DNA of 64,000 nt. Source: Giardia intestinalis (lineage: Eukaryota). The position numbers were made by a program, and so were the translations under genes. Where the stretch lies: assembly GCA_000002435.2 (NCBI GenBank), contig CM018790.1, one strand, 5' to 3'. The notes under the pieces were generated by a model, which had not been told where the DNA came from, searched no databases, and saw only the letters and a program-made list of their open reading frames with translations. Of the stretch, positions 2,158-53,500 are shown piece after piece (the first letter of the stretch is position 1; each line of letters opens with the position of its first letter).

Positions 2158-2172
2158 GTTTACTATCTAAGT
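2158..2172 (-). terminator. VSP-type extended polyadenylation signal (ACTTAGATAGTAAAC on the minus strand), 3-17 nt past the stop codon.
   Basis: Matches the consensus ACTYAGRTAGTRAAY described 3' of Giardia vsp genes. It contains the general Giardia poly(A) signal AGTRAAY. Confidence 0.7.
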
Positions 2173-2174
2173 AC

Positions 2175-18436: not shown

Positions 18437-18438
18437 GT

Positions 18439-18453
18439 ACTTAGATAGTAAAC
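18439..18453 (+). terminator. VSP extended polyadenylation signal ACTTAGATAGTAAAC.
   Basis: Begins 3 nt after the stop codon and contains AGTAAAC (AGTRAAY). Confidence 0.7.
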
Positions 18454-34300: not shown

Positions 34301-35159
34301 TCGCCTCTATATATGCATGGTTACTGAGAGCAAGATTTGCCTTGTATTTGTAGAGGTCTAAGTTAGGGATTGTGTCTATTACTCGATAAAATCCATCCGG
34401 ATGGCTGTTAGAATTGGAGGGATTGAGATATTTTTGCAACCTTGTATTAACTAGTGTCAGATCAAAAAGATCGGGCTCTTCGTTCTGCCCTGTCCCATCA
34501 ACAATGGCGGCTATAGCTGCAAAGCGAGCCAAGAACAAACTGCTCTTTGGGAATCCATAGTCACCTGTCAAGAAGCACGAAAGCACTAGTAGCGCTTGTC
34601 CAGATTCCGGATTTAAGCCTGCTTCGTCTAACATGAACTCCCTTTCCGCTGAGGACATGGTTTCAGATTCGTGCTTAGAGCCGTACTTAGCTATCTGCAG
34701 TGGATCTACATTAGTATATTCATAAGGGTATGCATGCTCGGCCCCAGAGGCCCATGCGTCTATGAGATTATGATAAAGAAAGTGTGCTACCGTATCGGTC
34801 TTGGGATATCCAAGAACTCCACGATGATATGCATGTGCAAGCAACCCAGTAGCAAGGTTATTGTTTCCCCTGGATGCAAGCGCAAGGTGTAGTTGACCCA
34901 GTGCTGTATCTTGTGGCTCATTGAGGCCTAGTAGCTTGGCGACGGCACTGATGAAATATTGGATAGAGCGGGTCTCTATCAGAGCATTATCCCTCTTATC
35001 TACCATATTGAATGCAAGCTCATTCCCAAGAACTGCCGCAAGCGAGTGGAGGGTACGCGTGGTCACGGATGGAGGTGTAGTGTTGTCTCCTGTGAGTTTA
35101 GACTCATTTTCGCCACCAGCGATCGCCACAGCAACCAGGACCAAGGGGAGAAGCAGCAT
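31344..35159 (-). CDS. Large (1271 aa) hypothetical protein with N-terminal signal peptide.
   Basis: ATG verified at 35157-35159. MLLLPLVLVAVAIAGG signal. Long uninterrupted ORF with Giardia-like codon usage. No recognisable domain by eye. Confidence 0.6.
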   Translation of the reverse strand: MLLLPLVLVAVAIAGGENESKLTGDNTTPPSVTTRTLHSLAAVLGNELAFNMVDKRDNALIETRSIQYFISAVAKLLGLNEPQDTALGQLHLALASRGNNNLATGLLAHAYHRGVLGYPKTDTVAHFLYHNLIDAWASGAEHAYPYEYTNVDPLQIAKYGSKHESETMSSAEREFMLDEAGLNPESGQALLVLSCFLTGDYGFPKSSLFLARFAAIAAIVDGTGQNEEPDLFDLTLVNTRLQKYLNPSNSNSHPDGFYRVIDTIPNLDLYKYKANLALSNHAYIEAIVQIVRASEALLIAEYPEVFGFPANITYSEYLSHPEYNLKTSNSTLIREAITIYLRQSRHFVPFVHTIHQELEKRVNVSYEEYAETLMHSPWFMRSPQETCTRRGQAFGIIASSLFSGHSVPDEYMSSTFILQATRILYLMAVHEGCHMGLAGLAYQTLMGFRMPTEDYIHYGNPEAHIYPVTHYLNLSSSTLHSIGTRSFIPARLIGFTTIKRISTLDAALPRTLEAIMALDIASISGSFESSFYLSLILSRKVTEFSVRSFGLNYLWSPSMAALIEHRFKQLNASIYRNCSTNSLDLYGGAPINTQFANYLANHSANVGHLGGQIASGYYLYTGQGSHFANSTHGNNVWNVAARRIVARDYISQYVKCLTTGKASKKRQLLSAYLANGMLGCHTSLKNAVKMILEAAKHSCTHNAVHNESSLRAWSVRRDKCLLPNLTMYGNTDTKYVKKQAHIYLAATLLANFCRVEDPGCAILMAKAIKLDAAAAMDALFKIDLQVNDVKTIGNALYSLISANGTFMQYYLKHRLGAASPKYRNTTLLRDIGLVRYTQELANAHSRCLLCKAKEIHNRLIKYYSTPKEPYKHMMGVNTTNIITLVVSYIYNTIGFICAYLDILLRLIENNLIKRSLRILDMTASLLYMKALEPIGTVVNSMRKSLSSSITAVRRIAVAVYMLIGSTKNGDSSLDLDLRARILDADDEPLTVQGHILGGNYGSTHRGMATVPQSSSDFARLLDSCYMIPYLLAHHGAFTGVQELLDEHLKDLPYCLQLTSIISSESASALMDIYDKSPSKRQLTEFTEQDIHQYLLELDNAFLNVQLHYRLPAMNYLFNYVKGHLLYQRPELGYETRRNKDFRNMLAYQTDEFLSLFANSSVLTGATSLPEFRVLTQASINRLASMISAGIKETQLTVDAYPQVVWDYGLDFDWQLLNGIRYTPLFTAQTLIIVVVKLKEHIRAFSAAMCALYYLILYDSTCAIFKDRRNVH

Positions 35160-35258
35160 GAATGTCCTGTGGCTTCAGAAGGCTTCTCTTTTTTAACTAT
35201 TTTTAAGAAATTAAGGAGAGAGGGGAGATTGTCAGTTTCAGAGCTAAAGATCGACTCG

Positions 35259-36911
35259 ATGAGTAAGAAATTTCGCATTATGGACCCATCAGAGTCTCGG
35301 GAGGTTATTATGACCCAGAGAAAACCAGAGGATGACCCTGGAAGACAAACTTTTCATGTAACGAAAGCATCTTTGAGTACCCCCGCTTCCTTGCCATTGG
35401 ATGCTGCAGAGGCGGCCAGATCTAAGAGTAATAAGTACATCCTTTCTACGCAGACATTCTCTACCGAAACCCCGTTAATTGCACGCAAAACCGTCATTCA
35501 GCAACAGCAAGACACACCCCATGATACAAAGAGCAAGAAATACAGACTCTTGACGACGGAAGAGCGCCAGGTTATTGCAAACACACCAAAACGAGACTCC
35601 AGTGTCAAATTTAGGCCGGCATCTGCACGCACACAATCTTTATACAAAACAGCTTATAGCCTGGTTGGAAACATAGAGACCATTGCTACACAGGATCTTC
35701 AGAGCCCTAAAGGCAGCAGCAGTGGTGCTACTCGAACTCCACGAACTGCCGGAGTCATTGTTGAACACTCGACACCTCTAAACTACCACGTGGCAGCGGA
35801 GCAACAGGAGCCCCAATATTTCCGTGGTCTTTCTATTCCCTACGGCAGTCGGACGACTGCACTGACAGCAGGATGCACCGTCGAGCCAGTAAGTCACATC
35901 TGTTCAGTCAGTCCTGCAGTCATTGAGAACAATACACTGCACTTGACATCTCACCTGTATCGACAGAACTCTACTAACAGAGCACTGGGGGATGCTACTG
36001 CAACATATGTGGGCAACCTGTCCGGTAGCACTGCTCTAGCCAAGGGTGCTGCACCGGCAGGTGATTACGCACTCTCCTTTCAGCGGTCGAAGCACTCTGT
36101 CTCTACGCAGAGATCTACATCTACAAAGAGTCAGCCAGACAAATCTGATGCAGGAGTTCCTGGAGCTGCTTCAAACAACTCTGCTGGCCCCTTTGGCAGC
36201 TCGAGCGGCGGGGCTAGTGGACCAGGCTCTGCTGTGGTATCTCTGAAAGCAGCCTCACGGCCTCAGTCAGGTTCTGTAAAGGCAAAACCAGTCGCACCCA
36301 TGAGCCTGACAACCAGTCTCACCTTGGGAGATGGCGCTATTGCATCTTCTACTTTAGCAGCTTCTCAGCGTGGAGCTATACCTGAATCTGATGACGCACC
36401 GATTACTACGATAAGCTACCAGACCAAACTCCAAAATCCGTATGCTCCACAACAGCGTACTGCCGGCCAGACTGGTGAGCTTCTCAACATGGCCAATGGC
36501 ACCGTGATAGCTACCTATACAGAGACAGGAGACGCCATAGAGAACTTCAGTTCTGACTCACGAAGCCCTGCTTTGGTAAAGAAGCGATGCCTGCCAACAT
36601 ACAACTATGTGGAGCTGCTCAAGAGCCAGCGTACCCTAGAGTTTGTGCCGTCTCCACCAGATTCTCCTAAGCCTGGGGAAGCAAACCCACGAGAAGTTAC
36701 CGACATTATTTACACAGGCCCCTCTTTATACTCACAGTACTTGGCGTCACAGGTAGGAAGCGGTGGAATAAGGGCGGGCGCCAGGGAAAAGTCTCTTCTG
36801 CAGAACCTCAAAGTTCAAGCCGATGTACTTAGACGTCTCAAGAAGAAGAATGCTGACATACGCAAGAATACAAATGACTTGGCCATTAGCCTGAATTTCT
36901 TCAATGACTGA
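35259..36911 (+). CDS. Hypothetical Ser/Thr/Ala/Gly-rich low-complexity protein (550 aa).
   Basis: The first ATG that does not overlap the upstream divergent gene is at 35259, verified. The track ORF begins at 34959 inside gene 31344-35159. Compositionally biased (SSSGGASGPGSAVVSLKAASRPQSGS...). A 99-bp divergent intergenic with the AT-rich run tttttaactatttttaagaaattaagg. Confidence 0.5.
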   Translation: MSKKFRIMDPSESREVIMTQRKPEDDPGRQTFHVTKASLSTPASLPLDAAEAARSKSNKYILSTQTFSTETPLIARKTVIQQQQDTPHDTKSKKYRLLTTEERQVIANTPKRDSSVKFRPASARTQSLYKTAYSLVGNIETIATQDLQSPKGSSSGATRTPRTAGVIVEHSTPLNYHVAAEQQEPQYFRGLSIPYGSRTTALTAGCTVEPVSHICSVSPAVIENNTLHLTSHLYRQNSTNRALGDATATYVGNLSGSTALAKGAAPAGDYALSFQRSKHSVSTQRSTSTKSQPDKSDAGVPGAASNNSAGPFGSSSGGASGPGSAVVSLKAASRPQSGSVKAKPVAPMSLTTSLTLGDGAIASSTLAASQRGAIPESDDAPITTISYQTKLQNPYAPQQRTAGQTGELLNMANGTVIATYTETGDAIENFSSDSRSPALVKKRCLPTYNYVELLKSQRTLEFVPSPPDSPKPGEANPREVTDIIYTGPSLYSQYLASQVGSGGIRAGAREKSLLQNLKVQADVLRRLKKKNADIRKNTNDLAISLNFFND

Positions 36912-37006: not shown

Positions 37007-40000
37007 CTATATGACTTCGCTAATTACCAACTCATTATTATCATCCTTCTCGTCACATGTGCCAGTATCTTGAGTGTGTGCACCCTTCTCTACGCTACTC
37101 TGACTCTTAGAGTTGAAGAGGGACGACCCGGGTGCATCGCCGTCCAGATTCGGGGCGATATCACTCATATTGCTTGGGCCAGGCTCCTTTACTTCGCTGT
37201 CCACGTCGGCCTCGTGATCCACAGCTTCAGTACCCTTGTGAAGCATACCCACAGACGTCTCGTGGAACGTGTCTGCATCGGGTACAACATGCTCCCTTCT
37301 GGATGGAGTTTGGACAAGTGTGTGAATGCGTGAGATGTCAAGAGAAGCGTTACTGACTAGTGTGCCAATGTTGAGTCCCCCAGCCGCATTGAATTTCTGA
37401 CTCACCTTAGAATCTCCATCAGTGCGAACGACGCTCTTCTGGAGCGGAAGTTGCTGGATTTTATCAGGCGTGTCTCCAAGAATTCGTGCAATCATTTGCT
37501 GAGTGACGCTGGACAGCACACCCGTAGAGAATGTCCTATGGTGTACATCTTTGGCATGATCTCGAGGGGCTCCCTCTGTCCTTGCCTTGTGGTGCATCCG
37601 TGCAGCGAGCATGTCTGATGACACTTGGTTGGCCTGGTATAAGAACGAAGACTGTCGTTGCTTATTGCGCCGAAGACCCGCTCCCATCGGCGGTTCTGTG
37701 AAGAGGACGGATGCTGTGGCGTTGGCTCGTAGATTCTGTTTGTGTGACAGCGTATGACCTGTCTCCCTATCTCGAAATGAATCTAGCCCTGAGCGCCCCA
37801 TTACCCCACTAGGAAGCAAATTCATCAGAATGTCAGATGGAAGATCCTGCTTATTACAAACCTTAAATAAAACACTTGGGTCATTGTGATCTTGGATTGA
37901 TAAAGAGTCAAAGAAATTCCTTGTCCCGGTCTGGTAGGCGTAGATAGATGGTTGGTGAGAGAGCTCAGTGTCGACAAACGTGTTGATAATTTGAGAGTCG
38001 GTAAGGCCAGATTGCTGCTGGTCCCCCGCAAAGGTACTTGTGAACAGCTTCTCAAAGGTATTATTGTCCAGCAAATTCTGACGATTGACAGCCTTTCCTG
38101 ATTGGATCTCATCCTTTTTTTGAGTTTTGTAAAGAGGACTTGCAAATGTGACCTTATCTTGCCGATCGAGTTTCACAGCGGCACTAGGTGCCTTAACGTT
38201 TAAGACAGAGGAGATTCTAGCAAAGCCAAAATCGCTGCTGAAGCCACTTGCAGGACAGGGGAGTCCCTCTATAGCATCCTGAGTGTCAGCTAGACCAGGT
38301 GCAGTATCTAACAGGGGATCGAGGGCAGCGGGGTTAAGATCGGTGCAGCCGTCAGTGTCTTCATACACCGACTGCTGGGGCTTCTCTTTAGATGCACTCA
38401 TCAAAAGGACATTAATGGCCCGAGATTCGCTAGCACTAAGGGCAGGCATGCCCGTCGAAAAGGATCTATCATCTCCTTTGTCGATACGAACCTCTGCATC
38501 GTCGCTAAGCTGTGCCTGTCGCTGGGTTAGATAAACCACCTCGGGGCCTTTGTTTATTACTGTAGATAGAAGCATTGCTGAGGGTTGATGCTCTCCGTCT
38601 CCGACGGACACATTGAGGGCCGAGCTTCCAGAAAGTAGACTGGGTGGAATTGGGCCGTTACTATTTGTAAGTAAGTACTCATAAATGCCTGCCACAGTTT
38701 TACCTTCCATAGCCAACAGAGCTGAGATTTTGCGGAGCTCATATATCTTTGCGTCGAACACAGAGGACCCATGTGCTGTAGGCCCTCGGGCCTCAAAAAG
38801 CATGGACGATGCGTCTCTGCGTGCCTGAAGATCTATCGGAGGTAGTTGGTTATTGGGTTGCTGTGTAGAGACGCTCTCTTGGCTGATATTCTCTGAACGA
38901 TCAATTGGACACACAAGATCATTTGCTGCTTCGCTGATAGGAGGGGCGCACCGGCTCGCCATGAGTTCAGAATCCTCAGCACTCTTTATGAGATTTTTTT
39001 TGAGATTTTTGAAATCTCGCGGAGAGTTTTCCTGACTAGAAGAGAGGCGTTCGGGGACATGTTGAAGGCTAGAATGTGTGTAATTAGAAGCTCTGTTTGT
39101 AGAAGCGCGAAGAGACAGCGATGTAGTCGCTGTTGAAGGGGCTGGCGTGCATAGTGACCCCTTGATGGATCTTAGATGGGGTGTCACACGGATGCTACTT
39201 CCCACAGACGAACTTCGACGAGAATCCATGCTGTACATACGCTCTCCGTCGAAGAGTCGACAGCATATAGAAATGGGAAGAGCAAGGGACGGATGCATGG
39301 GACAGAGCTTGCCCAAGCCTGGTAGGGTAACATTAAAGAGGCTCATGGCCGCGAGAGAGAAGAACGTGTGGTACTCATCAGGGTAGTTTTCTGGCCTGTC
39401 TGCAACACCGGACACCTTTGGGTTAATACAAACGGTAATGAAGCGTAACAGCGCGTCGATGTTGAAGATCATCTTTGCCTTTATATTATCAACGCACTTC
39501 TCATCCCACTCAGCAGCACGACTGTTATTTGCGTTAAGAAGGTAGTCGAGGAGGATGTAAGCAGGAGACCCTATCCACCAAGAATAGCATGTGTCCGGCT
39601 CCTTATCAGGTCTACCACAGAGACCCCCGTTAGCACATTGCCTATTAGATAATAGAAAGAGGCTTCTCTGGATATTTGGTATCAAGTGCAGACTGTCCAG
39701 CAGGTGCATAGTTGCCACGCAGCAAAATGTTTGTCCACCGTGTGACTCGTCCCCGGGGGTAGTTCCGAAGCCACCATCTGAATTCAAACACCGAAGAAGG
39801 TAGGAGCGAAGGGCATCTACATCTATCAAGTTATTCAAATGAAGCCCAATTAGAGAGGGCACCCGTTTGAGTAAGATTGTGAGACTGAGAACTGCACAGT
39901 AGCAGAACCGTGTATCTCTCTCCTTAGTGTAATCTCCATAAAAGCCTCCATCTTCTGCCTGTAGATCGATAATGGTGTTGGCCAAGGTAACACCAAGTTC

Positions 40001-40399
40001 TGGGGAAACGGTTTCTGAAAATTTGTTTAACAGGAGCAGACACTGCAGTCCTGAAGTTGTATGCACCAGGTGCATGTCATGACCCGGGCTGCCGCTGAAT
40101 CCTGCTATTTCACTCTGATTTCCCTTTGTGGGTTGCACAACCAGACAATCCTTGACAAATTGATGCAGGCGATCAATAGTAATCACTGTGCCAGGAACCA
40201 GTTGCTGCAGAAATACGTCCGTAGGCTGTCGTCCATGTAATATAAAGATAGAGCAAAGGACCCAGTAAAGACCGGAAAGCTTGGTGTGAGAAAGACCTAC
40301 TAACTCCATTAGCGTAGGATTCTGTATCTCCTCCATCTGGCCTATTAGGAAGCGCAGCATGAGGGTCTTCAGACCGTCCTTAGTCATTCCCTCAGTCAT
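37007..40399 (-). CDS. Rab geranylgeranyltransferase (protein prenyltransferase) beta-subunit-like domain fused to an approximately 750-aa low-complexity C-terminal extension.
   Basis: The N-terminal 370 aa carry the prenyltransferase alpha-alpha toroid repeats (EDGGFYGD..RDTRFCYCAVLSL; NSDGGFGTTPGDESHGGQTFCCVATMHLL; QCANGGLCGRPDKEPDTCYSWWIGS; GVADRPENYPDEYHTFFSLAAMSLFN). The frame stays open for another 750 residues rich in S/T/Q/D. ATG verified at 40397-40399. Confidence 0.7.
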   Translation of the reverse strand: MTEGMTKDGLKTLMLRFLIGQMEEIQNPTLMELVGLSHTKLSGLYWVLCSIFILHGRQPTDVFLQQLVPGTVITIDRLHQFVKDCLVVQPTKGNQSEIAGFSGSPGHDMHLVHTTSGLQCLLLLNKFSETVSPELGVTLANTIIDLQAEDGGFYGDYTKERDTRFCYCAVLSLTILLKRVPSLIGLHLNNLIDVDALRSYLLRCLNSDGGFGTTPGDESHGGQTFCCVATMHLLDSLHLIPNIQRSLFLLSNRQCANGGLCGRPDKEPDTCYSWWIGSPAYILLDYLLNANNSRAAEWDEKCVDNIKAKMIFNIDALLRFITVCINPKVSGVADRPENYPDEYHTFFSLAAMSLFNVTLPGLGKLCPMHPSLALPISICCRLFDGERMYSMDSRRSSSVGSSIRVTPHLRSIKGSLCTPAPSTATTSLSLRASTNRASNYTHSSLQHVPERLSSSQENSPRDFKNLKKNLIKSAEDSELMASRCAPPISEAANDLVCPIDRSENISQESVSTQQPNNQLPPIDLQARRDASSMLFEARGPTAHGSSVFDAKIYELRKISALLAMEGKTVAGIYEYLLTNSNGPIPPSLLSGSSALNVSVGDGEHQPSAMLLSTVINKGPEVVYLTQRQAQLSDDAEVRIDKGDDRSFSTGMPALSASESRAINVLLMSASKEKPQQSVYEDTDGCTDLNPAALDPLLDTAPGLADTQDAIEGLPCPASGFSSDFGFARISSVLNVKAPSAAVKLDRQDKVTFASPLYKTQKKDEIQSGKAVNRQNLLDNNTFEKLFTSTFAGDQQQSGLTDSQIINTFVDTELSHQPSIYAYQTGTRNFFDSLSIQDHNDPSVLFKVCNKQDLPSDILMNLLPSGVMGRSGLDSFRDRETGHTLSHKQNLRANATASVLFTEPPMGAGLRRNKQRQSSFLYQANQVSSDMLAARMHHKARTEGAPRDHAKDVHHRTFSTGVLSSVTQQMIARILGDTPDKIQQLPLQKSVVRTDGDSKVSQKFNAAGGLNIGTLVSNASLDISRIHTLVQTPSRREHVVPDADTFHETSVGMLHKGTEAVDHEADVDSEVKEPGPSNMSDIAPNLDGDAPGSSLFNSKSQSSVEKGAHTQDTGTCDEKDDNNELVISEVI

Positions 40400-40749
40400 T
40401 CCAATTGCAAAAAACGGAGTAAATTTTTCATTAGATATGACCAGTGTCTGGTGCTTAGACGGCTTCCTGATATTCGCGGTTCTATTCGTTTGTTGCTGCA
40501 GTTACATCGCCAGGATGCCCCGGTTTAAATCGATTGTCTTCCAGGAGAAAACTGGCTTTCGGGGGACCTTGTACAAGAGCGCAGTTATTGGCCTGCGGTT
40601 GCATTACGCCATTAGTATCATCTGTCTTCTTCTGGGCCTGTATCGCCTATTCTTTTGAGTCTTTTTAGGTACACATGAGTAAATTGTCTCTATGGCATTT
40701 CAAACACTTCATTAGGAATGCACGCTGAGCGCTACCGTTTACTACAAAT

Positions 40750-43067: not shown

Positions 43068-44486
43068 TCACATTATAACGAACTTGCGGTCTTCATTGAG
43101 CATAAAGCTCTTGTGGGCACTTAGATCACGAAGTATGTCATATGTCCCTGGGCCTGGTGTTTCAGTGGAAGATGTAGCCTTAAACCGCTCCGAGGCACTA
43201 TGTAATGCAGGTATGCTTTCTGAACGACGCCTAGTAAACGAGTCCTGGACAGTATACTCTCCTGGCCCGTGGAGTGTCTTCTCTTCTCTTTTTATCTTGT
43301 CATGGTTGTAAGATATCCTGTGCTCACGTAATATTGTGTCCTGGTTTGCTGTGGCCAATCCGAATGCAGGCCTGTATTGTCCAGGGGGCGGAATACCGAC
43401 ATTCTCCTTCATGCTGCTCGGAGCGTCCTCAATGAGCTTCTCGTATGTCTCTAGCTTCTTTCTTTGTTCCTTACTTATGTTAGCCCCTATCTGGGTCTGC
43501 TCGTCAGGCTTGTCTAGTAAGTACGCCAAGCCCATGGACCCCGCGATTGTGACAGGCTTCTTTATGTAAGTTGTAGAAGAGCCGGCAATCCTGCCAGTCA
43601 AAGTTTTGCCTTTGAAGCCACGGACTACGCGCGTAGATGATCCCGGGTCTATGGTGCCTTTTGATTTCGAGGTACTGGCCGGCAACGGGGCAGAAGCCGC
43701 TGATGTACGCTTGTTCCGGATGTGTGCATAAGTTGGAGACTCAGCAAGGTCAGCGTTGATCTCGTTCTGAATGAACTCACGAGAACTAGGGAGGTCAATG
43801 TTAAAGTGCTGGGCTATTTCCTTCAGATATGCTCGATACTGGACGTGTGGGGAAATGAGGTTGGATGCACGCTTCTCAAGCTCCTTGTCTCGGTTCTCTG
43901 GATTGAAGCGTTCCTCTGCCGTCAGAGCATTCTCCTGCAGACGCTCTGGAAGAGGGTTATAGAGAGGATCGTTCTCTATAACATACTGTGAAACGGATTT
44001 ATTCTGCTTACGTGCCGCGTCCTTAAGCCTTTTATATTCGGAAGGAATGGTACCCTCTGGACGACACGTGTTTGTGTAAATAATGTTGTAAGATTGGAGG
44101 CCTGTGGTCACAGCCCCATATGCTTGCGTATTATATTGGCCCGGCGCAGGGGTCTCCTCGACAGCTTGATTACCAAAAGGGTGGTCACGCCCAACAGCCA
44201 GAAAGCTTGCAGAGGGGTGTCTAGGGTCGGCTTTAATGGACGGGTAGAAGAGGGGCTCCGCATTAGGGTTATAGTGTGAAGGCCCCGGCATGCCCCAGTG
44301 AGCATGTCTAAGTGGAAATCGCTTTGTTGTGCTTGCGAAGCTTGCAGAGCCCTTTTTGGAAGTAGATAAAGCCTGCTTGTGGTTTACGGGTGCTGCCGAG
44401 CTATAATAGTATCCAGGGCCTGGCGAGGCGGTTCCATCGTTAGTTCGTCCTGCAGCAAACGGATTCTGCGAAACTTTACCCTGCAT
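43068..44486 (-). CDS. Sperm-tail PG-rich repeat (STPGR, SHIPPO/ODF3-like) protein; likely an axoneme/flagellum-associated protein.
   Basis: Repeated PGPGxY-type units: SPGPGYYYS, MPGPSHYNP, APGQYNTQ, PPPGQYRP, HGPGEYTV, TPGPGTYD. First ATG is at 44484-44486 (MQGKVSQNPF...); the track start is 38 codons upstream. Confidence 0.65.
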   Translation of the reverse strand: MQGKVSQNPFAAGRTNDGTASPGPGYYYSSAAPVNHKQALSTSKKGSASFASTTKRFPLRHAHWGMPGPSHYNPNAEPLFYPSIKADPRHPSASFLAVGRDHPFGNQAVEETPAPGQYNTQAYGAVTTGLQSYNIIYTNTCRPEGTIPSEYKRLKDAARKQNKSVSQYVIENDPLYNPLPERLQENALTAEERFNPENRDKELEKRASNLISPHVQYRAYLKEIAQHFNIDLPSSREFIQNEINADLAESPTYAHIRNKRTSAASAPLPASTSKSKGTIDPGSSTRVVRGFKGKTLTGRIAGSSTTYIKKPVTIAGSMGLAYLLDKPDEQTQIGANISKEQRKKLETYEKLIEDAPSSMKENVGIPPPGQYRPAFGLATANQDTILREHRISYNHDKIKREEKTLHGPGEYTVQDSFTRRRSESIPALHSASERFKATSSTETPGPGTYDILRDLSAHKSFMLNEDRKFVIM

Positions 44487-44549
44487 GGCTGTAAATCGCA
44501 GCTCTCGCCGGCAAAAAATAAAATCTGGAAAACAACAAGCAAAGTGATT

Positions 44550-47500
44550 ATGGATAGAGAAGTGCACCAAACCTTTTATGATGGATATGAAAATGGACAT
44601 AAGGTATATTACTCATTGCGTTCACTAGAGGAAATAGAGCAGGACGAGGCCTTGAACGACGCGCGGGATGAAACCATGTTATCCATAGATTCTCATTTTA
44701 GAAACCTCTCTGACGAGGCTTTGGCTGTTCTTGAGGCCATCTTTGTTAGTGACGTCCCCATAGGTGAGTTTCTTTCATTCCACCGACCCCAAGTGGCAAA
44801 GATGAACCAACAAAGCGACCCAACGATCAGTCATATAGCTAGCAACTTAACAAAGGAAGCTATCAGTAGCGTAAAAACATATCGCAGAAAGTATGTTAAT
44901 CCGAGCTCTGTTCAAATCCCGCGATCACGGACTATTACGCGCATACTATCACAAGGACAGAACAATTATCAGGCAGTAGAGAGAACATCACCCACGGATA
45001 AGGAAGATAGAAGCCTGTCCTATTCGAACTTTGTCAATACTATGAAGATTGCTATGAACCTTTCCCCACACGTTTCTACGGAAATATTTAATCTTCTATG
45101 CAAGGGTACACCAAACAAAACCCACTACCTTTACGATGATCTTATCTCCTCCTTCTCAGATATTCGGAGTCCTTTGCGAACGGATTTTCCTCTGGATGCG
45201 GCATGTGCCATTTACGCACAGTGCACCATCCATTGGCTAGACCTTCTCAACTATCTGAATGCGCGTGCAGGGTCTATCTCTGAACAACAGCTAGGGATTC
45301 GGCTCGAGCCTGTGCCCACCCCGGACTCTTTCTGCCACAGGTTAACAATAGACACCTGTCTCTATGTTGAAGGGCTCGATATCTACATGACTTGTTCTCG
45401 CGATAACTTAGCTCAGTTTTGGCTGCCACCACACCTGAACCTGTCTTTGGGCCAGATGAAGCATTTAGAGTATATCTTAAAATTAGATGAGATTGCGACT
45501 CATCACTTCGGATTGAATCGAGATTTTTTTGAGAAGCTTTTGTATGACCTCACAGAGCTGAGCGATCCCGCTGGAAAAGCGTCTGCAGACGGACAGGACG
45601 CCAAGGGTGACCACCAAAGAGGTCACATTCTGACGGCAAAGCATAGAGCTGATTTCTCTAGTGATGGGCGAACAAAGCGGGCTATCGATACAATTTTAAA
45701 TCTCACAAAATTCCTTGATAGAATGTCTCTTTATGACCTTCATGCAGAAGATATTTCGTGGCTCATAAAGTTGAGCAACACAGATAATTCAATCAGCTCT
45801 TATCTAAAGGCGTCTGATGCCGACATACAATCAATAGGAGGCACAGAAGCACAAGAGCTAACCCATAATAAGGTGGACTTTTCCTTGATTAGGTCACTAA
45901 CCAATCCGGACACTGATAAAACTGTTCTTCCATTAAAGGACAATACCAACTTACCAAGGCTGATTGTGGAGGACAAAGAGTCGCGGCCAGAAGCCTACAA
46001 GGATAGCTTCACATATTCACTAGTCACAGCTATAAGGGAGACAGATAATGCTCTTGTTTCACTCAGGCCACGCGGGACTAAGATCAAGAGAACCCTGAAA
46101 CCAGAGGTGCTGGCGCACTATGGACCAAAATTCGTTCAAGACCTCATCGAGGAAGAGGAGCAGGACCGTCAGAAGGAGCTCGAACTGCAGAAAAATATCG
46201 AGCAAGCCAGGACAAAGTACTCCAATAAGACACTACTTATTGGCAACTCTAGAGTTATTAAAAGGATCAAGGAAGAATTTGGGCTTAGTGGGGCCAGCGC
46301 AGCCAATGAAGACGCCGCTGATGTACCTGGAGCAAATCTAGGGACAGATCCTTTAGCTTCTGGCCGGACACATCAGCGGGTCCACAAGGACTGGGCAGAC
46401 TCTGTAGTCACAAGCGAACCACCATACGAGACAGCAGATATGAGCATTCCTGACTATCGTGATGGATTCGGTGGGAGCAAGTATGTTGGCCGCACTATCA
46501 GTGGCACGGCCAGAGCGGTAAGCGGTACAGGATCCTCTCAACAAGGAAGAGCATTCTCGGCTCTCCAGCGGCCGAGCTCAAATAGAGCAATGCATTCAAG
46601 CATGTATATTGCCCAGCATCTCTCAAATTCAGCGGTATTGGGGGACTCATCCAGAAAGCAGCAGCGGGATGTCAGTGCCCGACCCAATCAGAGGCTACCA
46701 CGACTTAATGATACAGACGAAGATCAGCAATATCTAAATGCTACTTCTTCCAAAGAGGGAACGCTTGCCGCACGGATGAAGATGCTTTCCCGCCCGGCAT
46801 CTCTCTCAGCTCAAGCCCCACCACCCCCCAGTAAGCAGAATACCTCATCTTATCAACGTACGCGATTTAATAAGCACGAGTTTGATAACGAAGCTCACGC
46901 GGTGGAGCATCCACTGTCTAAGCTGAAGGCACAGTACCTACAGGCCTCGCAAGGAGACACAAAGGCTGAGCAAAATCTTGAGCGGACCAGGCAAATAGTC
47001 AAATTGTCAGATGCCGCCATTCTTCGGCAGGTTCGAGCATCAACAAACATCGCAGTTACAGAGTATGTCAATCCTCTTTATGAGCGATTAGAGCGACACA
47101 AAGTCATGGCTGAGATGGAGAAGTCTACCAAGTCAAATGTCGTCAGGGACGTTCAGGCTACTAACCCTGCTTATGTCGCATCTTGGGCGAGTGCTGCTGT
47201 GTACGATAAAGACAACGACTGTCTTGTTATTTCCTGTGAGGGAGGGTGTGTTCGGCTCTACCGTATCAGCAAAGACTTTGACCTGATCAAGAAGGTACAG
47301 GTAGCCGACACGTCTCTCAATACACTCTGCTCTGTGTCCAGAACAGTGTCGATGCTTTCTATAAACGAATACGCGGACACGCTGAAAATGCTGTTTATTC
47401 AACTGCCTACTAACACAGCCAACGACTTATTAGACAAGTTCAATCTACAGCCCATCAAGGCAAGACTCTGGTCTGCCATTACGAACGATCACTACATTTA

Positions 47501-50500
47501 TACTAGCGAAGGATTCGGTATTTATGACGACTATCTATTCAATAATACATTCACCATAGATCTAGGGCATAAGTCACTTGATCTAAGTGCGTTAAATATT
47601 GATTCCTCACCTGCGATATTCCGATCAACAGACGAGCGAGAGATCAAGCAGCACTACATTAACGGGTTAGACTTCGCCATTTCTCTGACCATTCCAGGGT
47701 ATCTTTCTCCAAGTATTGCACCTCGTAACGGCGAACGCCCGTGCAAGTCAAAGCTATTTGTGTCCACAACCTCGAACGCCATATACTTTCAGCTGGGGAA
47801 GGAGGACATCCTCAAGCCAGCTGCCGTCGTGACAAACTACTTGGGCGATCCCTTCCTTATTGGTACTACCAACAAGGCTGATGCAATTCTACTGGGTGGC
47901 GAAAGAAACAAGTTCGAGGCTCTTCTGCCAGATGGGCCGCCAACCATAAATTACAGGACACTGAATGAGTATACTAACTTTGGACCGAATACGCGGAGAG
48001 TTTTCCACAGCATTAGTGTTTACAATTTCTACGTACTATATAATTTAGAGTTATTATTTAACTACGTCCATGTCAAGATAGGGGAGATTGCAAAGGTCTG
48101 CCAAACGAATAATAAGGATCTCATAAAAGCATTTTTCAAGAGAGATCTCAGTATAAAGGTAAGGGGCGAAGAGGGCTATTTAGACTTTGCCTCAACGAAG
48201 AGGCAGCTCAACAAGCAATCAGCAGCCCGTAATTTTTCAGAAGATGTCGGTAATGCAGAGGGCACAACAATAGATGACATTGTGCAAGGAATAGTGGAGC
48301 AGATAATCTCCTCCATCGAACCTATTGGTTCTGACTCTGCAATCTCCCCTATCTGGAAGGGAGCCGTCAAGGGAATCGCAAGCTTCATGAACAGCAAGAA
48401 GAGCTTATGGATTACATGCAACCAGCGGTGGCACAGTACTCATGATAATGCAGATGTTTTAGTAACAGGGCTGAGTAACGGAGATGTTGTCCTCTGGAAC
48501 CTTGTGACGCTGCGTCCACGCATCATACTGCATGCATTTCATGGCTTTGACGTCACAGCGCTGGCTTTTGACCCAGACAGCAACATACTGTTCTGCTCAT
48601 CTGTCACCGGTCTCATCAGAATATATAATTACGATGTTACCCCGATACCGATTGCTGAGTTTAAGGAGTCTGCTTCTGTCTTAAAACTCTTTTATTCCCA
48701 GTCATCAGATCTTATTATTATTGTTCTGGTGAACGGTGCTGTGTCCCTTTGGAGCAACCGGCTTTATCAGCAGATCAGTCGAATAAGCACTCATATGACC
48801 CCAACTACCGCCGAATGGGATGAGCGGAACTCTCTTCTCCTAGTGTGCAGCAGAGAAATCAAGGTATTTCAGCTTATTGGTGCCGAGGTGAACCAGGAGG
48901 CAAAGCGCGTCGAGAGAACTCGAGAGGATAAACTGCGACGCCATAGACAACGAGAGGAAGAGAAGCAGACTCAGTCGCTTTATAGCGCACTTGAGGACCC
49001 GAAAGACTCACTGAAAAAAGAGGTTGCTGCAGAAGACCCACTAGACCACGCTGAGGTAGTGTGCAATATGGGGCCTCATAAGAGCGAAGTTCAGCTTGGA
49101 CAGAAGAGCAGTGCAGTCGTTAATCTGCCCATGGGAAGTCTTGGCTTGCCCAAGTCGACAACTGGCTATCAGTTAGTTCCCGTTACAGCGCTTGACGATG
49201 TTCCTAACCTGATTAACAATCCAATATATACCTCTCAAAATCCCAGTACTAAACTTGTACAGAGCAACACCGACTCAACTTCCCTGAACACATCTTTTCA
49301 ATCAACTGGCCAATTTAGTTTCGATTCAGCCAGTAGGAACGTATCTGTTAACCCTACCCTACAATCTACCAACCCCTCTAACATTCAAACAGCTCAAGAG
49401 AATACTATATCACCAAACTACATATCAACTATTGTACCCGATTTACCCGATGTAGCTCTCTCATCTGCAGCTCCCCTCAGACTCACTAATATGCCACTTC
49501 AGACTACACTGGTCCGCCGCGAATATCCAGTTTCAACTCTTGCATATAAGCGAGAGGGAGGCGATAGACCGGACAATCATATTGACATAGCGATGATTCG
49601 ACAGGTGGGACTTGATGGCCGAATAGAGCCCAGCAAGTACAATGTGCATGATCCATGCAACGCAATAAAACCAGTTGATTTAGATCGTGATCTCCTTCGT
49701 GCTCACTGGGCCAATATCGTATCCATCATCGATGTGAGCTATTACACCACTCTGAGCTTTAATGAAGTTGAGCTTTTGACGCTGGATCTGTTTAAGGGGC
49801 TAGATGACAATCTAATTACGTTTCAATCTGCATGTGCATTTGGACCAAAAGGAACATTCACTGGACTTAGCAACATAACTATGGCGCCAAAGCCAGGAGT
49901 CACTGCATTTGCATTTAACATGGGAGAAGATAGAAACAGCCCGGCCTATCACAGACTGTCTAAATTGGCATCTTCAGCTACAATAGCCTCCGTCCAACCA
50001 GCAGTTCACGGTGATAATCCTGACGAAACAAATAGCAATGACTTCACCCACTCCCCCACCGCAACAGCACAAGACCCAGAAGTTAGCAATGCACCTACAG
50101 AGGCGGATGACCAGCCAGGCAGAAGGCTCCCGCTGGGCCTTGGTGAGGATCGCGAGACATTCACTACTATGCCTCGCCGCACTTACACCGTATCTAGCGC
50201 TGCGCGTAATAGGGGGTACAATTTTGCTTTGGCTAGAGTCTTTAATAGCGTTGTTCAGGATATAATGATGGGTGTTTCTCGTAATGTAGGCGCACCACCC
50301 ACCAAACCACGGCGGCCACCATCCTTCTACAATCCTCCGTCTGAGGTTTTTATCCCTCAAGTTGCGCAGAAAGCCCTTGAAAAGGACTACACGCCAGGAG
50401 ATATGCGCACATCTTATTCAACATATGAGCCAAAGACAGATAACAAGTATCAGTTATTGCCTGAAGAGTTCCTCGTTCATATGAAGCTATTTGCACGTCC

Positions 50501-53500
50501 GTATCGCAGTATGGCCTATCGTCCGACACCTAACAGCACAAGCTACATGACCAAAACAAATTCTCAACTGAGAAAGGAGCTTTATAACGAGTTACACAGG
50601 CGGAAATCTTTGGTTCGAATCAAATTTGTACGGATCGTCAATGACATATATTTTAGCAATCTGGATTTCAAGACTTATGAGGCACGAGTTAATTTGGAGT
50701 CCCAAGCGCTTCGAGACGAGTCAAACGGGCCCAAGCATTCAAAGGATACAAGTGTAGAATTAGAAGCCGAGAAGTTGTTCCGCTCTCTAGTCTATAAAGT
50801 AGACCATTCCAAAAGGCTTCAAGACAAAACGTCCTCACTCAGAAGCTCCAAATTTCATCCCCACTTTAGTGGGAGAATAGTGTCCAAGGGGTTGTATGGA
50901 AATAATAAGTTTTCCCTGCTTCGTAAAAGCTCTGTGGATGGCATGCCGGATCTTTCTGCAGCAAATACTAAAACAGTAATTACCTACAGAATAGGGGGTG
51001 GTTCAGAGGGCGGCAGCCCAATTAACTCCCTTATCAATGAGATGGCACTCCCTGTACAACCACCTTCTGCACAAGGTATCTTCAGGCGCAAAGTACCAAT
51101 AACAGCAGCTGACACAAGGAACTTAATAACCTTTTCTGCGAGTGACCTTGGGAGCATCGTTGAACGAACCCATTTGGAGCGGGAGCAGAGCATTGAGACG
51201 CTAATCGCACGCAACAAAGCGCTAGCAATTGAAGAGGAGGATGAGCACGCGGGGACATCTACCTCTGAGACAGATAAGACAGAAAGCATTCTTGCTGACG
51301 TTCCCATAAGTGTGAGGGATTCGTCACAGTCAACCCAAAGCAAGAAGAAGCCTCGGAGTACAGTGCCAAACACAAATGTGAGTATAACAAGCGGCCATGA
51401 CCTGACGGTGGATGAACGTGATTCCACCATTCACACCATGCACACAACAATTTTGACTGGGGAAGACCGTGACTTGACTACAATGGTTCCAGAAGATGAT
51501 AGGCATGACAGTCCAAGCTCTCGCATGTCAAGTAGCGACGAAGAAGGTGACCTATACCAGGACGACTTCGAATTCAATTTGTTCCAGGGTTTGAATGAAG
51601 AGGTAGAGAAGAACACGCTACAAATAGAGAAAGAGCTCAATGAAAAGATTGCCGAACAGCGCATGTCTGCAGGAAAACAAGCGTCGAAAAGAAAGCTCCA
51701 GTTGGAGGCAGAAGCTACTCCCATAACCATCCCCTTCAAACCTATGAAGCCTGCATATACCCGATTAGCTGCTCGTCAAGCCATGCACATGCGGAAGAAG
51801 ATAGGTGGAAGAACGAGTAACATAACAGGGATAGATATAGTGAGTCAAATAGCCCCTAACGTCGTTAAGAAGCTTGACTTTCTACGAGATATACTTGATA
51901 CCGAACTGATGCCGGTGCCAACATCTACTCTAGAAGGTGAGCCGCCTAAACCAGTTGTCGCTCGCAGGAAAGAAAATATCCTTTATGAGACCTCCATTTC
52001 TGTGACTGCAAGTACGAAAGAGGAAGCAGAAAACTTTATACTTAAGACAGAGCAAGAGCGGGCTGCACGCTACAAAACAAAACTCTATACAATAGACAGC
52101 AACGGAAACATCTCCCTCTGGCTTTTAGAGCAACAGTTCGAGCGGGTATATGATTCCAGCAAATATGATGTACAAAGTCTGAAGGATGACAGCGATGAAG
52201 AGAGCTCTGGCGATATCTTGCCGGGACAACCAAGCCTGTCCTCGGTGCAGAAGAGGCCTAGTTCTGTGTCAGCTGGTGCACTTCATGGCCACACAAACTC
52301 TCGACTCAAAAGGATTGCCGCACTTACTATTGATACTACTTCTAGTCCACACTCTGAGCAAGCACAGGCTAGAGCATCCAGCGCTGCTAACGTAACCACT
52401 CGACACACAGGCCAGTCCAAATTGGTGAAGGGCCTAACTAAAGAGGCCGATGTGTCTATATTCAAGCGTAAGGACAAGATCGTGGAGAAGCCAACCTTTA
52501 TCACCACATACAAGGTAGAGTTGCCAAATAATGTGCAAATAACATCTGCAAGCTTTGACCACGCACAGTCTATCATTCTCTGTGGGCTGTCGAACGGAAA
52601 TGCTCTTGTCTATAGCATAGATTTAACAGAGGTCATCAGCTCTTACAATGTTAGTAATTGTGCAAAAGCTGCTGTCAACTTCTATCACTCATGCTCGCCT
52701 AGTACAAACAAAGACCAAGTATGGCGTAAAGAGTTATTGGATTTCGGATCAGTCCTCACCACCGGGTACTTCCAGACAAAGTTCACGGAGGGATATTTAC
52801 GTGACTACATCTTCACGTCTGGCCGCTTAGCCCTGTGCTATTGTGAGAGCAACACAGAAAAGCTCAGTAGGAAGTTTGTTAACGAGAAGCTCAACGAATA
52901 CATGATCAGCCAAGATATGGAAGGGTTGAATTGTCCGCCCAGAGCAATCCTAACGGGTCACACAGGAGGTGTCATTTGTATTGCAAATTCAAGGAATTAT
53001 TCATACTTGATTACTGCAGATGACGAGGGTCTCTTAATATATTGGCAGTCGATAGGGGTGGCTAAGGCGAAGCTCTACTTCTCTGACCAGCGTATTCTTT
53101 CTGTTGTTTTTGCAGAAGAGGAGATAGTGCCTGGAGCGGCATTTTTGGCGCTGAGCGATGGATCTATCTGGATAATCACCCCCAACTGCCGCTATAGAAT
53201 ATTCACAATCGGTCTTCCTGTCGAAAACATCGGTCACAACACAATCAAACTTGCGACGACTGTTGTCCAAGTTAGAGAGCTGGAGGACTCAACGCCTGTG
53301 CGGCAGATGCTACTGGCCATTTGCATCAACAACGTTATCCTTGTGTACCGCATCTATGCCAATCTGAAGCTTGTAGAGGTACTCCGACCAGATGGTACTC
53401 CGAGCGCCGTTCCAAGCGAAAATGCAACAGCTTTAGCAAATGACCTTAACCGGAGAGGATCTATCGGCAATTTATCGGCGAGAAAAGATAGCCCTCCCAT

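What the first reader, a model, noticed from the sequence alone, without database searches (positions are those of the whole stretch)
37007..40399. Rab-GGTase beta-subunit domain carrying a 750-residue low-complexity C-terminal extension
Prenyltransferase beta subunits are normally about 330-450 aa. Here the conserved alpha-alpha toroid repeats occupy the first 370 aa and the frame then stays open for another 750 S/T/Q/D-rich residues. That is either a genuine lineage-specific fusion or tail, possibly regulatory or localisation-related, or two genes joined by a sequencing frameshift.
Basis: partly seen in the sequence, partly recalled or inferred. Interest (0 to 1): 0.5.

Follow-up and report, generated by a model that had tools for sequence, protein, structure and literature searches.

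The report
Giardia Rab prenyltransferase with conserved long tail
This is a real, already-annotated Giardia gene in which a normal-looking Rab geranylgeranyltransferase beta subunit carries a 750-residue C-terminal tail that is found only in the genus Giardia, is kept by selection, matches no known domain, and has an unknown function.

Summary
The 1130-codon ORF at 37007-40399 (-) is real. It is the annotated Giardia intestinalis WB "Rab geranylgeranyltransferase" (XP_001704647.1). Residues 32-373 are a prenyltransferase alpha-alpha toroid that matches RabGGT-beta best. The Zn ligands D269, C271 and H344 are intact.

The 750-residue tail is not a frameshift artefact. The single ORF is intact in assemblages A and B and in a third G. 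duodenalis lineage. A fourth lineage's contig is simply cut at the domain boundary. G. muris (1062 aa) has a homologous tail. Tail dN/dS is about 0.05-0.08.

"Low-complexity" is an overstatement. Entropy is 4.05 bits against 4.14 for the enzyme domain, there are no repeats, and Ser is only moderately enriched (12.9%).

A syntenic metagenomic outgroup (350 aa) and the fornicates Chilomastix, Dysnectes and Kipferlia lack the tail. Among the 150 best RabGGT-beta representatives, only the two Giardia clusters extend more than 300 aa past the domain.

Between G. duodenalis and G. muris the tail is short near-invariant islands plus one predicted helix, separated by indel-rich linkers. It matches nothing in Pfam or the PDB. 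My best reading is a mostly non-globular docking or regulatory arm. That function is inferred, not shown.

The parts
37007..40399 (-). Complete CDS including the stop codon (1130 aa). It is the Giardia intestinalis WB Rab geranylgeranyltransferase beta subunit with its long tail. A second in-frame ATG lies at 40387.
   Evidence: ORF list. The 90%-identity cluster contains XP_001704647.1 / A8BV59, 1130 aa. Start-codon context compared with assemblage B and lineage X.
39281..40306 (-). Prenyltransferase alpha-alpha toroid domain, residues 32-373, of the RabGGT-beta type.
   Evidence: Pfam PF00432, E 5.7e-65. PDB best hits 3pz1_B and 1dce_B, E 4.4e-41. 86% identical to assemblage B and 50% to G. 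muris.
39368..39595 (-). Span holding the three Zn-ligand codons: D269 (39593-39595), C271 (39587-39589) and H344 (39368-39370). Nearby are the equivalents of the rat isoprenoid-binding residues: H220, R263, K266 and Y272.
   Evidence: Residue-by-residue alignment to rat RabGGT-beta 1dce_B, counted to D238/C240/H290. Coordinates checked by translation. All invariant in G. muris and the metagenomic outgroup.
37010..39259 (-). C-terminal extension, residues 381-1130 (750 aa). Non-repetitive, moderately Ser-rich, no Trp, no known domain.
   Evidence: No Pfam or PDB hit at E<=10. dN/dS 0.054 (A vs B) and 0.076 (A vs P0002). Homologous tail in G. muris.
38909..39229 (-). Most variable part of the tail, residues 391-497. 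Ser/Arg-rich linker that begins with the invariant SRRSSSVGSS. Largely absent or unalignable in G. muris.
   Evidence: A-B identity falls to 57% in the 425-484 window. G. muris has gaps here. R[RK]x[ST] site at residue 394.
38666..38764 (-). Predicted long helix, residues 546-578 (SVFDAKIYELRKISALLAMEGKTVAGIYEYLLT). Conserved in G. muris.
   Evidence: The only tail element with raised AF2 confidence (pLDDT about 58-66). D[AS]KI.ELRK..LL is conserved.
38441..38467 (-). Conserved island 1, residues 645-653 (RSFSTGMPA).
   Evidence: At least 6 of 8 residues identical across G. duodenalis A, B, X and G. muris.
38126..38164 (-). Conserved island 2, residues 746-758 (RQDKVTFASPLYK).
   Evidence: DKVTFASPL is invariant across the genus.
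37700..37729 (-). Conserved island 3, residues 891-900 (RANATASVLF).
37298..37354 (-). Conserved island 4, residues 1016-1034 (SNASLDISRIHTLVQTPSR). The strongest island.
   Evidence: ASLDISRIHT[LI]VQTPS is identical in both species.
37088..37132 (-). Conserved island 5, residues 1090-1104 (PGSSLFNSKSQSSVE).
40400..40436 (.). 37-nt AT-rich spacer between the divergent start codons of the RabGGT-beta gene and the DUF1242/Kish-like gene (40437-40658, +). Presumed shared bidirectional promoter.
   Evidence: Sequence. The head-to-head pair is conserved in assemblage B, lineage X and the metagenomic outgroup. DUF1242 Pfam hit. Promoter function is inferred.

Best explanation
This is one genuine gene encoding a catalytically competent RabGGT (GGTase-II) beta subunit. 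A Giardia-genus-specific C-terminal extension of 700-750 aa is permanently fused to it. The extension appeared after Giardia split from its nearest sampled relative and before G. duodenalis and G. muris diverged, and purifying selection has kept it since. It is built from one amphipathic helix and roughly 5-12 short near-invariant peptide islands, separated by fast-evolving, indel-tolerant, Ser-rich linkers. I infer that it is a largely non-globular docking or regulatory arm. On this reading the islands bind partner proteins or membranes, or fold back on the enzyme, and the Ser-rich linkers may be phosphorylated. That would control where or when Rab prenylation happens in Giardia's reduced endomembrane system. 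Shown: gene integrity, enzyme-domain identity and ligand conservation, tail conservation, restriction to the genus, and absence of any known domain. Inferred: disorder, the motif-docking mechanism, and any link to Rab prenylation control.
For: Intact ORF and domain. Zn and isoprenoid-binding residues present. Full-length single ORFs in three G. duodenalis lineages with the same gene order. G. muris orthologue of 1062 aa whose tail aligns at 37% over 189 aa (E 3e-21) and 29% over 379 aa (E 2e-19). Tail dN/dS 0.054-0.076 against 0.044 for the domain. Island-and-linker pattern: the tail has 35 indel events (13 of 5 aa or more) against 9 in the domain, 33% vs 50% identity, and 5 strict islands. 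Composition depleted in W, C and aromatics and enriched in Ser, mean hydropathy -0.51 vs +0.13. In the same AF2 run the toroid helices were recovered but the tail was almost all coil apart from helix 546-578. No Pfam or PDB match even at E<=10. A syntenic outgroup orthologue stops 9 residues after the domain. The C-terminal extension is unique among the 150 best representatives: median 18.5 aa, 95th percentile 89 aa, Giardia 700 and 755 aa. No internal poly(A) signal or AT-rich initiator at the junction.
Against: Disorder is not demonstrated. Both AF2 runs had only 4-5 close sequences and gave pLDDT of about 28-32, low even for the known toroid, so they cannot separate 'disordered' from 'unpredictable'. 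Sequence entropy is near normal. By my own arithmetic from the values (hydropathy about 0.44 on a 0-1 scale, net charge about 0.02), the tail sits close to the folded/unfolded boundary of a charge-hydropathy plot. The tail's constraint within G. duodenalis is about as strong as on the enzyme domain, which would also fit folded domains. Synonymous sites are near saturation in the A-B and A-X comparisons (pS about 0.7), so those ratios are rough. No partner, localisation, expression or phosphorylation data were available. The presence of an alpha subunit and of REP in Giardia was not checked.
Confidence: 0.6

Rival explanations
1. Artefact: two adjacent genes were joined by a sequencing or assembly frameshift, or by a lost stop codon in this one assembly.
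For: One database gene call (P0002, 745 aa) starts at Met388, right at the domain boundary.
Against: That contig ends 32 nt upstream of the call, and the frame is open to the edge, reading the end of the enzyme domain. The single ORF is found in WB, DH and GS, in a second NCBI assemblage B record (KWX13467.1), in many independent Logan and ENA assemblies, in a third lineage and in G. muris. There is no poly(A) signal or initiator-like AT-rich element at the junction. Purifying selection runs continuously across the junction.
Confidence: 0.01
2. The tail consists of one or more novel globular domains rather than a disordered arm. It would be an orphan folded module with its own activity or binding surface.
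For: dN/dS 0.05-0.08, similar to the catalytic domain. Near-normal entropy and no repeats. Segments such as 605-664 are 95% identical between A and B, higher than any window of the enzyme domain. Several islands are hydrophobic. AF2 was uninformative, so a fold cannot be excluded.
Against: Between G. duodenalis and G. muris there are 35 indel events and about 280 lineage-specific residues. Only about 66 of 750 residues lie in strict islands. No Trp, 0.9% Cys and 4.5% aromatics. Almost no secondary structure was predicted, although the same run recovered the toroid helices. No PDB or Pfam similarity.
Confidence: 0.2
3. Rosetta-stone fusion: the tail descends from a once-separate gene whose product works with RabGGT. 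It would replace or supplement the alpha-subunit accessory domains or the Rab escort protein.
For: The domain boundary is sharp. The syntenic outgroup orthologue ends right after the domain. Mammalian RabGGT carries accessory Ig and LRR domains on its alpha subunit (general knowledge), so accessory modules on this enzyme have a precedent.
Against: No PPTA-repeat or GDI/REP similarity at E<=10. The absence of Trp does not fit the Trp-rich PPTA repeats (the Trp-richness is from my own knowledge). No free-standing homologue was found by the word-indexed search of 5.8 billion proteins or the JGI metagenome scan. The outgroup contig ends 178 nt after the stop, so what lies downstream is unknown. 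Weak tail-only hits could be hidden below the 150 listed.
Confidence: 0.12
4. Tolerated read-through: the tail arose when a stop codon was lost and translation ran into former 3' sequence. It would be largely functionless baggage on an essential enzyme.
For: No detectable homologue anywhere outside Giardia. A neighbouring orphan ORF (34959-36911) has a similar Ser-rich, hydrophilic composition.
Against: The frame has stayed open for 700-750 codons in every lineage, including G. muris. dN/dS is far below 1. Invariant islands persist across the genus. Functionless sequence would have picked up stop codons and frameshifts.
Confidence: 0.05

Closest known systems
Canonical RabGGT (GGTase-II) beta subunit, e.g. 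rat RABGGTB (PDB 1DCE chain B, 331 aa) or yeast Bet2
   Same: Same alpha-alpha toroid domain (E 4e-41). Same Zn ligands (D/C/H) and the conserved RPxKxPDxCYSWW and DxxHT motifs. Presumably the same chemistry: transfer of geranylgeranyl groups to Rab C-terminal cysteines.
   Different: Canonical proteins end about 10-20 residues after the domain (median extension 18.5 aa over 132 representatives). The Giardia proteins continue for 700-755 residues. G. duodenalis also has a loop insertion of about 23 residues inside the domain (around residues 287-312) relative to rat.
Giardia muris Rab geranylgeranyltransferase TNJ29829.1 (1062 aa)
   Same: Same two-part architecture. Enzyme domain 46-50% identical. 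The tail shares the helix and the islands SFSTG[ML]PA, YED..GC..LNP, FAR[IV]SS, DKVTFASPL, ANA.ASVL, QSSFL, ASLDISRIHT.VQTPS and SLFNSKS.SSV.
   Different: The linkers differ. About 60 residues of the G. duodenalis 420-490 region are missing. About 90 G. muris-only residues sit between FARVSS and DKVTFASPL. The C-terminus differs.
Syntenic metagenomic orthologue P0036 (JGI 3300010163, contig Ga0136175_10079670, 350 aa)
   Same: Same local gene order: UQ_con, WD40, DUF1242 on the opposite strand, then RabGGT-beta. Neighbouring genes are 62-69% identical to Giardia's. All catalytic motifs are present.
   Different: No tail. The protein stops 9 residues after the domain, stop codons follow in all frames, and tblastn finds no tail similarity. 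The contig is 62.6% GC.
Accessory modules on other protein prenyltransferases: the Ig-like and LRR domains of mammalian RabGGT-alpha, and the long insertions in protozoan farnesyltransferase subunits (from general knowledge, not tested here)
   Same: These are precedents for lineage-specific, non-catalytic additions to prenyltransferase subunits whose roles are poorly understood.
   Different: Those additions are folded domains on the alpha subunit, or insertions within the fold. Here a single long C-terminal extension sits on the beta subunit and has no recognisable domain.

Membership tests
RabGGT (GGTase-II) beta subunit | Prenyltransferase alpha-alpha toroid domain (Pfam PF00432) | tested here: met
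   Residues 32-373, E 5.7e-65, 220 bits against a cut-off of 26.5.
RabGGT (GGTase-II) beta subunit | Closer to RabGGT-beta than to FTase-beta or GGTase-I beta | tested here: met
   PDB phmmer: RabGGT-beta 4.4e-41 (144 bits), best FTase-beta 5.4e-24, GGTase-I beta 1.8e-20. No phylogeny was made.
RabGGT (GGTase-II) beta subunit | Zn2+ ligand triad Asp/Cys/His (rat D238, C240, H290) | tested here: met
   D269, C271 and H344 align to those positions (checked). Invariant in all Giardia sequences and the outgroup.
RabGGT (GGTase-II) beta subunit | Conserved isoprenoid-diphosphate-binding residues (rat H190, R232, K235, Y241; the assignment of these residues is from my own knowledge) | tested here: met
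   H220, R263, K266 and Y272 align to them.
RabGGT (GGTase-II) beta subunit | Works as a heterodimer with a PPTA-repeat alpha subunit and needs Rab escort protein | not testable with these tools
The literature searched did not settle it.
RabGGT (GGTase-II) beta subunit | Geranylgeranylation of Rab C-terminal cysteines | not testable with these tools
   Needs a biochemical assay.
Prenyltransferase alpha subunit (PPTA repeats) as the identity of the tail | PPTA repeats (Pfam PF01239) | tested here: not met
   No Pfam hit for the tail at E<=1 or at E<=10 for four tails. The tail has no Trp.
REP/GDI family as the identity of the tail | GDI/REP fold with the conserved SCR motifs (Pfam PF00996) | tested here: not met
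   No Pfam hit at E<=10. No PDB hit with the tail profile at E<=10.
Intrinsically disordered region bearing short linear motifs | Short conserved islands within fast-evolving, indel-rich linkers | tested here: met
   35 indel events against 9 in the domain. 5 strict islands (66 residues) are invariant from G. duodenalis to G. muris, and about 280 residues are lineage-specific.
Intrinsically disordered region bearing short linear motifs | Disorder-type composition (few aromatic and Cys residues, many polar and Ser residues) | tested here: met
   Aromatics 4.5% vs 8.0%, W 0, C 0.9%, S 12.9% vs 9.0%, hydropathy -0.51. The bias is moderate and entropy is near normal.
Intrinsically disordered region bearing short linear motifs | No stable tertiary structure | tested here: inconclusive
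   AF2 pLDDT of 21-36 across the tail apart from helix 546-578. But the known toroid scored only 30-47 with the same shallow alignment.
   Entropy 4.05 vs 4.14 bits. 40-residue windows score 3.3-3.9 in the tail and 3.6-4.0 in the domain. No self-similarity.

The most novel reading that the evidence does not exclude
The tail is a Giardia-specific adaptor that ties the Rab prenylation enzyme to particular partners or membranes through its conserved peptide islands. It would take over part of the escort or targeting role that REP or alpha-subunit accessory domains play in other eukaryotes. Rab lipidation in this reduced endomembrane system would then be spatially organised by the transferase itself.
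Probability: 0.12. Interest if true: 0.65.

Novelty: new variant of a known kind. Interest (0 to 1): 0.38.

Why it matters
RabGGT-beta is one of the most uniform eukaryotic enzymes in both length and fold. Among the 150 best representatives in a library of 1.84 billion proteins, only the two Giardia clusters carry a long C-terminal extension. By general reputation Giardia has a streamlined genome, which makes a selectively maintained 750-residue addition to a housekeeping enzyme notable. If the tail controls the localisation or partner choice of Rab prenylation, it would be a parasite-specific handle on membrane traffic, and a feature absent from the host enzyme. The conserved islands give precise targets for mutagenesis and pull-down experiments. 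The gene is already in public databases, however, and nothing here shows a new mechanism.

Tried and rejected
1. The N-domain search in the word-indexed protein database returned nothing at 1e-20. At the default threshold it returned only a Tritrichomonas protein, missing even the Giardia sequences. Both searches were wasted, so the exhaustive HMMER job was used instead.

2. AF2 on the full-length alignment and on a tail-only alignment with G. muris gave pLDDT of about 28-32. That is too poor for a fold search, so none was run.

3. The tail profile found nothing against the PDB or Pfam at E<=10.

4. The JGI metagenome scan with the tail alignment gave 377 pattern matches, none confirmed.

5. 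The JGI metagenome scan with the enzyme domain gave 80 loci, all generic eukaryotic RabGGT-beta at 30-40% identity. None was Giardia-like, so there are no intermediate forms.

6. I looked for a poly(A) signal (AGTRAAY) or an AT-rich initiator at the junction. There were 0 sites in the gene against about 1 expected by chance.

7. tblastn of the tail against the rest of the window found no paralogous segment.

8. Seven literature searches found no description of this tail or of Giardia's RabGGT subunits.

9. Considered and dropped:
- An FFAT-like NFFDSLS at residues 828-834, because it is not conserved in G. muris.
- R[ST]FSTG occurring twice, at 645-650 and 954-959. Only the first copy is conserved in G. 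muris.
- My early idea that the true start is the second ATG. The upstream context shows the first ATG is positionally equivalent to the B and X starts, and A carries a 12-nt near-duplication.

10. A Spironucleus orthologue could not be identified with the name look-ups available.
Full report
**Observation.** Pfam places a prenyltransferase alpha-alpha toroid domain (PF00432) at residues 32-373 (E 5.7e-65) and finds nothing in the remaining 750 residues. From base composition, a 750-codon open frame has a chance probability of about 3e-17. The window is clearly Giardia: it also carries VSP genes, an ankyrin-repeat kinase and actin. The 90%-identity cluster of this protein includes XP_001704647.1 / A8BV59, "Rab geranylgeranyltransferase", G. 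intestinalis ATCC 50803, 1130 aa. The gene is therefore already annotated at this length.

**The enzyme half.** The best solved-structure matches are RabGGT-beta chains (3pz1_B and 1dce_B, E 4.4e-41). They are well ahead of farnesyltransferase-beta (5.4e-24) and GGTase-I beta (1.8e-20). Counting along the printed alignment to rat 1dce_B, the Zn ligands D238, C240 and H290 correspond to D269, C271 and H344 here. H190, R232, K235 and Y241 correspond to H220, R263, K266 and Y272. All are present and invariant in G. muris and in a more distant relative. By sequence, the domain looks catalytically competent.

**Is the tail "low-complexity"?** Not in the usual sense.
- Its Shannon entropy is 4.05 bits, against 4.14 for the enzyme domain.
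- Self-BLAST finds no internal repeats.
- Ser is 12.9%, against 9.0% pooled over the window's other long ORFs.
- S+T+Q+D is 32.1%, against 24.8%.
- The clearer signals are depletion of aromatics (4.5% vs 8.0%), no Trp (P about 0.005), Cys at 0.9%, and mean hydropathy of -0.51 against +0.13 for the domain.

**Artefact or real?** A search with the tail alone found four clusters, all Giardia duodenalis:

| Cluster | Identity to this tail | Length |
|---|---|---|
| Assemblage A | 99% | 1126-1141 aa |
| P0002 | 90% | 745-aa gene call |
| Assemblage B (GS and others) | 78% | 1129 aa |
| Third lineage, Logan assemblies only | 73% | 1130 aa |

But its contig ends 32 nt upstream, and the frame is open to the contig edge, reading ...ICCRLFDGER, the end of the enzyme domain. 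It is a truncated contig, not a split gene. Gene order around the locus is identical in assemblages A and B and in the third lineage. The junction has no Giardia poly(A) signal (AGTRAAY) and no AT-rich initiator.

**Selection.** Nei-Gojobori estimates:

| Comparison | Region | dN/dS | Amino-acid identity |
|---|---|---|---|
| A vs B | Enzyme domain | 0.044 | 86% |
| A vs B | Tail | 0.054 | 78% |
| A vs P0002 (dS 0.61) | Tail | 0.076 | 91% |

A vs P0002 is the least saturated pair. Synonymous sites are near saturation in the A-B and A-X comparisons (pS about 0.7), so those ratios are rough. Even so, nonsynonymous change is clearly suppressed along the whole tail. One segment (605-664) is 95% identical between A and B, higher than any window in the enzyme domain. 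The tail is coding and constrained. It still evolves faster than the neighbouring UQ_con, WD40 and EF-hand genes, which are 95-99% identical.

**Phyletic range.** An exhaustive HMMER search with the full-length alignment against 1.84 billion representatives gave 2405 hits. After Giardia duodenalis itself, the top hit is P0035, the G. muris "Rab geranylgeranyltransferase" TNJ29829.1 (1062 aa). Its enzyme domain is 46% identical. Its tail is homologous in two blocks: 37% over 189 aa (E 3e-21) and 29% over 379 aa (E 2e-19).

Nearly all the other listed hits are about 300-450 aa. They include the fornicates Chilomastix cuspidata (339 aa), Dysnectes brevis (344 aa) and Kipferlia bialata (361 aa, partial). 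Measured over the 150 best representatives, the C-terminal extension past the domain has a median of 18.5 aa and a 95th percentile of 89 aa. The two Giardia clusters, at 700 and 755 aa, are the only large outliers. The next longest, 288 aa, is a Trichinella gene model whose cluster mates are named CDK9, so it is probably a merged gene model.

**A syntenic outgroup without the tail.** The third-best hit, P0036 (350 aa), lies on a JGI metagenome contig (L004, 62.6% GC) with the same local gene order as Giardia: UQ_con, WD40, DUF1242 on the opposite strand, then RabGGT-beta.
- Its neighbouring genes are 62-69% identical to the Giardia ones.
- Its enzyme domain is 37% identical to G. duodenalis and 39% to G. 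muris. Those two are 46% identical to each other by BLAST (50% in the MAFFT alignment), so P0036 branches outside both.
- Its protein ends 9 residues after the domain. Stop codons follow in all three frames, and tblastn finds no tail similarity on the contig.

The tail therefore arose, or was retained, only on the branch leading to Giardia, before G. muris and G. duodenalis diverged. The contig ends 178 nt past the stop, so I cannot see what lies downstream in that organism.

**Anatomy of the tail.** These figures come from a genus-wide alignment.
- The enzyme domain is 50% identical between G. duodenalis and G. muris, with 9 indel events.
- The tail is 33% identical over its alignable 583 columns, with 35 indel events, 13 of them 5 aa or longer.
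- About 280 residues are present in only one lineage. The G. duodenalis 420-490 region is largely missing in G. muris. About 90 G. muris-only residues sit between FARVSS and DKVTFASPL.
- Five strict islands are nearly invariant: RSFSTGMPA (645-653), RQDKVTFASPLYK (746-758), RANATASVLF (891-900), SNASLDISRIHTLVQTPSR (1016-1034) and PGSSLFNSKSQSSVE (1090-1104).
- Looser islands include YED..GC..LNP.A.D (679-694), FAR[IV]SS, the 797-818 block and QSSFL.
- A segment at 546-578 (DAKIYELRKISALL...IYEYLL) is conserved. It is the only tail element that AF2 predicts as a helix with raised confidence (pLDDT about 58-66).
- The first 110 residues of the tail are the most variable. They start with an invariant SRRSSSVGSS, a basophilic-kinase-type site.

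**Structure and homology searches.** Both AF2 runs were poor (mean pLDDT 28.0 and 31.6) because the alignments held only 4-5 close sequences. Even the toroid scored only 30-47. The one usable contrast is that the same run recovered the toroid's helices while leaving the tail almost entirely coil. That fits a non-globular tail but does not prove it. I ran no fold search on such models. The tail profile hits nothing in the PDB at E<=10. None of four tails hits any Pfam family at E<=10. In particular there are no PPTA repeats (alpha subunit) and no GDI/REP domain. A JGI metagenome scan with the tail alignment confirmed no homologue. A second scan with the enzyme domain returned only generic eukaryotic RabGGT-beta. 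Nothing else in the window resembles the tail.

**Interpretation.**
- Shown: this is a single real gene. Its N-terminal half is a RabGGT-beta with all catalytic ligands. Its C-terminal 750 residues are a conserved, selected, Giardia-genus-specific extension with no known domain. This architecture is unique among the RabGGT-beta representatives examined.
- Inferred: short invariant islands and one helix set in indel-tolerant, Ser-rich, aromatic-poor linkers suggest a flexible arm carrying linear docking motifs. That arm could recruit partners, tether the enzyme, or regulate it, perhaps through phosphorylation. I give about 0.6 to the combined statement.
- Rivals: novel folded domains (about 0.2); a fusion with a former partner gene that supplements alpha or REP functions (about 0.12); tolerated read-through baggage (about 0.05); sequencing artefact (about 0.01).

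**Literature and novelty.** Seven full-text searches found no paper describing this extension or the subunit composition of Giardia RabGGT. Reading the candidate papers added nothing. The protein is in the databases, so the gene is not new. The tail's restriction to the genus, its conservation pattern and the tail-less syntenic outgroup appear to be undescribed in the literature I could search. I rate it a new variant of a known kind, of moderate interest (0.38). It is unusual and testable, but there is no evidence yet for a new mechanism.

**Caveats.**
- dS saturation weakens the A-B and A-X ratios.
- Only the top 150 of 2405 HMMER hits could be inspected, so weak tail-only homologues could be hidden.
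- Spironucleus was not identified.
- Two of the three word-indexed searches misbehaved.
- The presence of alpha and REP genes in Giardia was not tested.

Noticed in passing
window 1961-7614 and 12997-18650: A perfect inverted repeat: arms of 5654 nt, 100% complementary, with a 5382-nt spacer. Each arm carries an identical 712-aa Cys-rich ORF (2175-4313 on the minus strand, 16298-18436 on the plus strand) that matches Pfam VSP (PF03302, E 1e-82). So this is an identical inverted pair of variant-specific surface protein genes. It is either a very recent duplication or gene conversion, or an assembly feature.
   Followed up: partly
window 40359-40658 (+), with the spacer at 40400-40436: A small DUF1242/Kish-like membrane-protein gene (73 aa from the ATG at 40437; Pfam E 1.6e-7) is transcribed divergently from the RabGGT-beta gene. 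Only 37 AT-rich nt separate the two start codons. The head-to-head pair is conserved in assemblage B, the third lineage and the metagenomic outgroup. The longer 99-aa reading of this ORF would overlap the first RabGGT-beta codons.
   Followed up: partly
window 40376-40399 (-): Assemblage A has a 12-nt near-duplication at the start of the gene (ATGACTGAGGGA|ATGACTAAGGAC), giving MTEGMTKDG where assemblage B has MAEDG and lineage X has MTRDD. The upstream context shows that the first ATG (40399) is the positional equivalent of the B and X starts. Many automatic gene calls on assemblage A assemblies use the second ATG instead, giving 1126 aa.
   Followed up: yes
window 34959-36911 (+): A Ser-rich ORF (12.2% Ser, hydropathy -0.52) with no Pfam hit converges on the 3' end of the RabGGT-beta gene. 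Orthologous gene calls of 550 and 545 aa exist in assemblage B and the third lineage. Its composition resembles that of the RabGGT-beta tail.
   Followed up: no
locus L004 (JGI metagenome 3300010163, contig Ga0136175_10079670), 1-3555: A 62.6%-GC metagenomic contig from an unnamed organism shares a four-gene order with Giardia, at 62-69% protein identity for the neighbouring genes. By RabGGT-beta identity it branches outside G. duodenalis plus G. muris. It may come from an unsequenced Giardia-related diplomonad.
   Followed up: partly
window 39464-39541 (-), residues about 287-312: The G. duodenalis enzyme domain has a loop insertion of about 23 residues (LLNANNSRAAEWDEKCVDNIKAKMIF) relative to rat RabGGT-beta. 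The loop is shorter in G. muris and absent in the metagenomic outgroup.
   Followed up: no
window 44379-54065 (+): A very long ORF of 3228 aa. I did not characterise it. Its listed GTG start overlaps the end of the neighbouring 510-aa ORF (43068-44600, minus strand).
   Followed up: no
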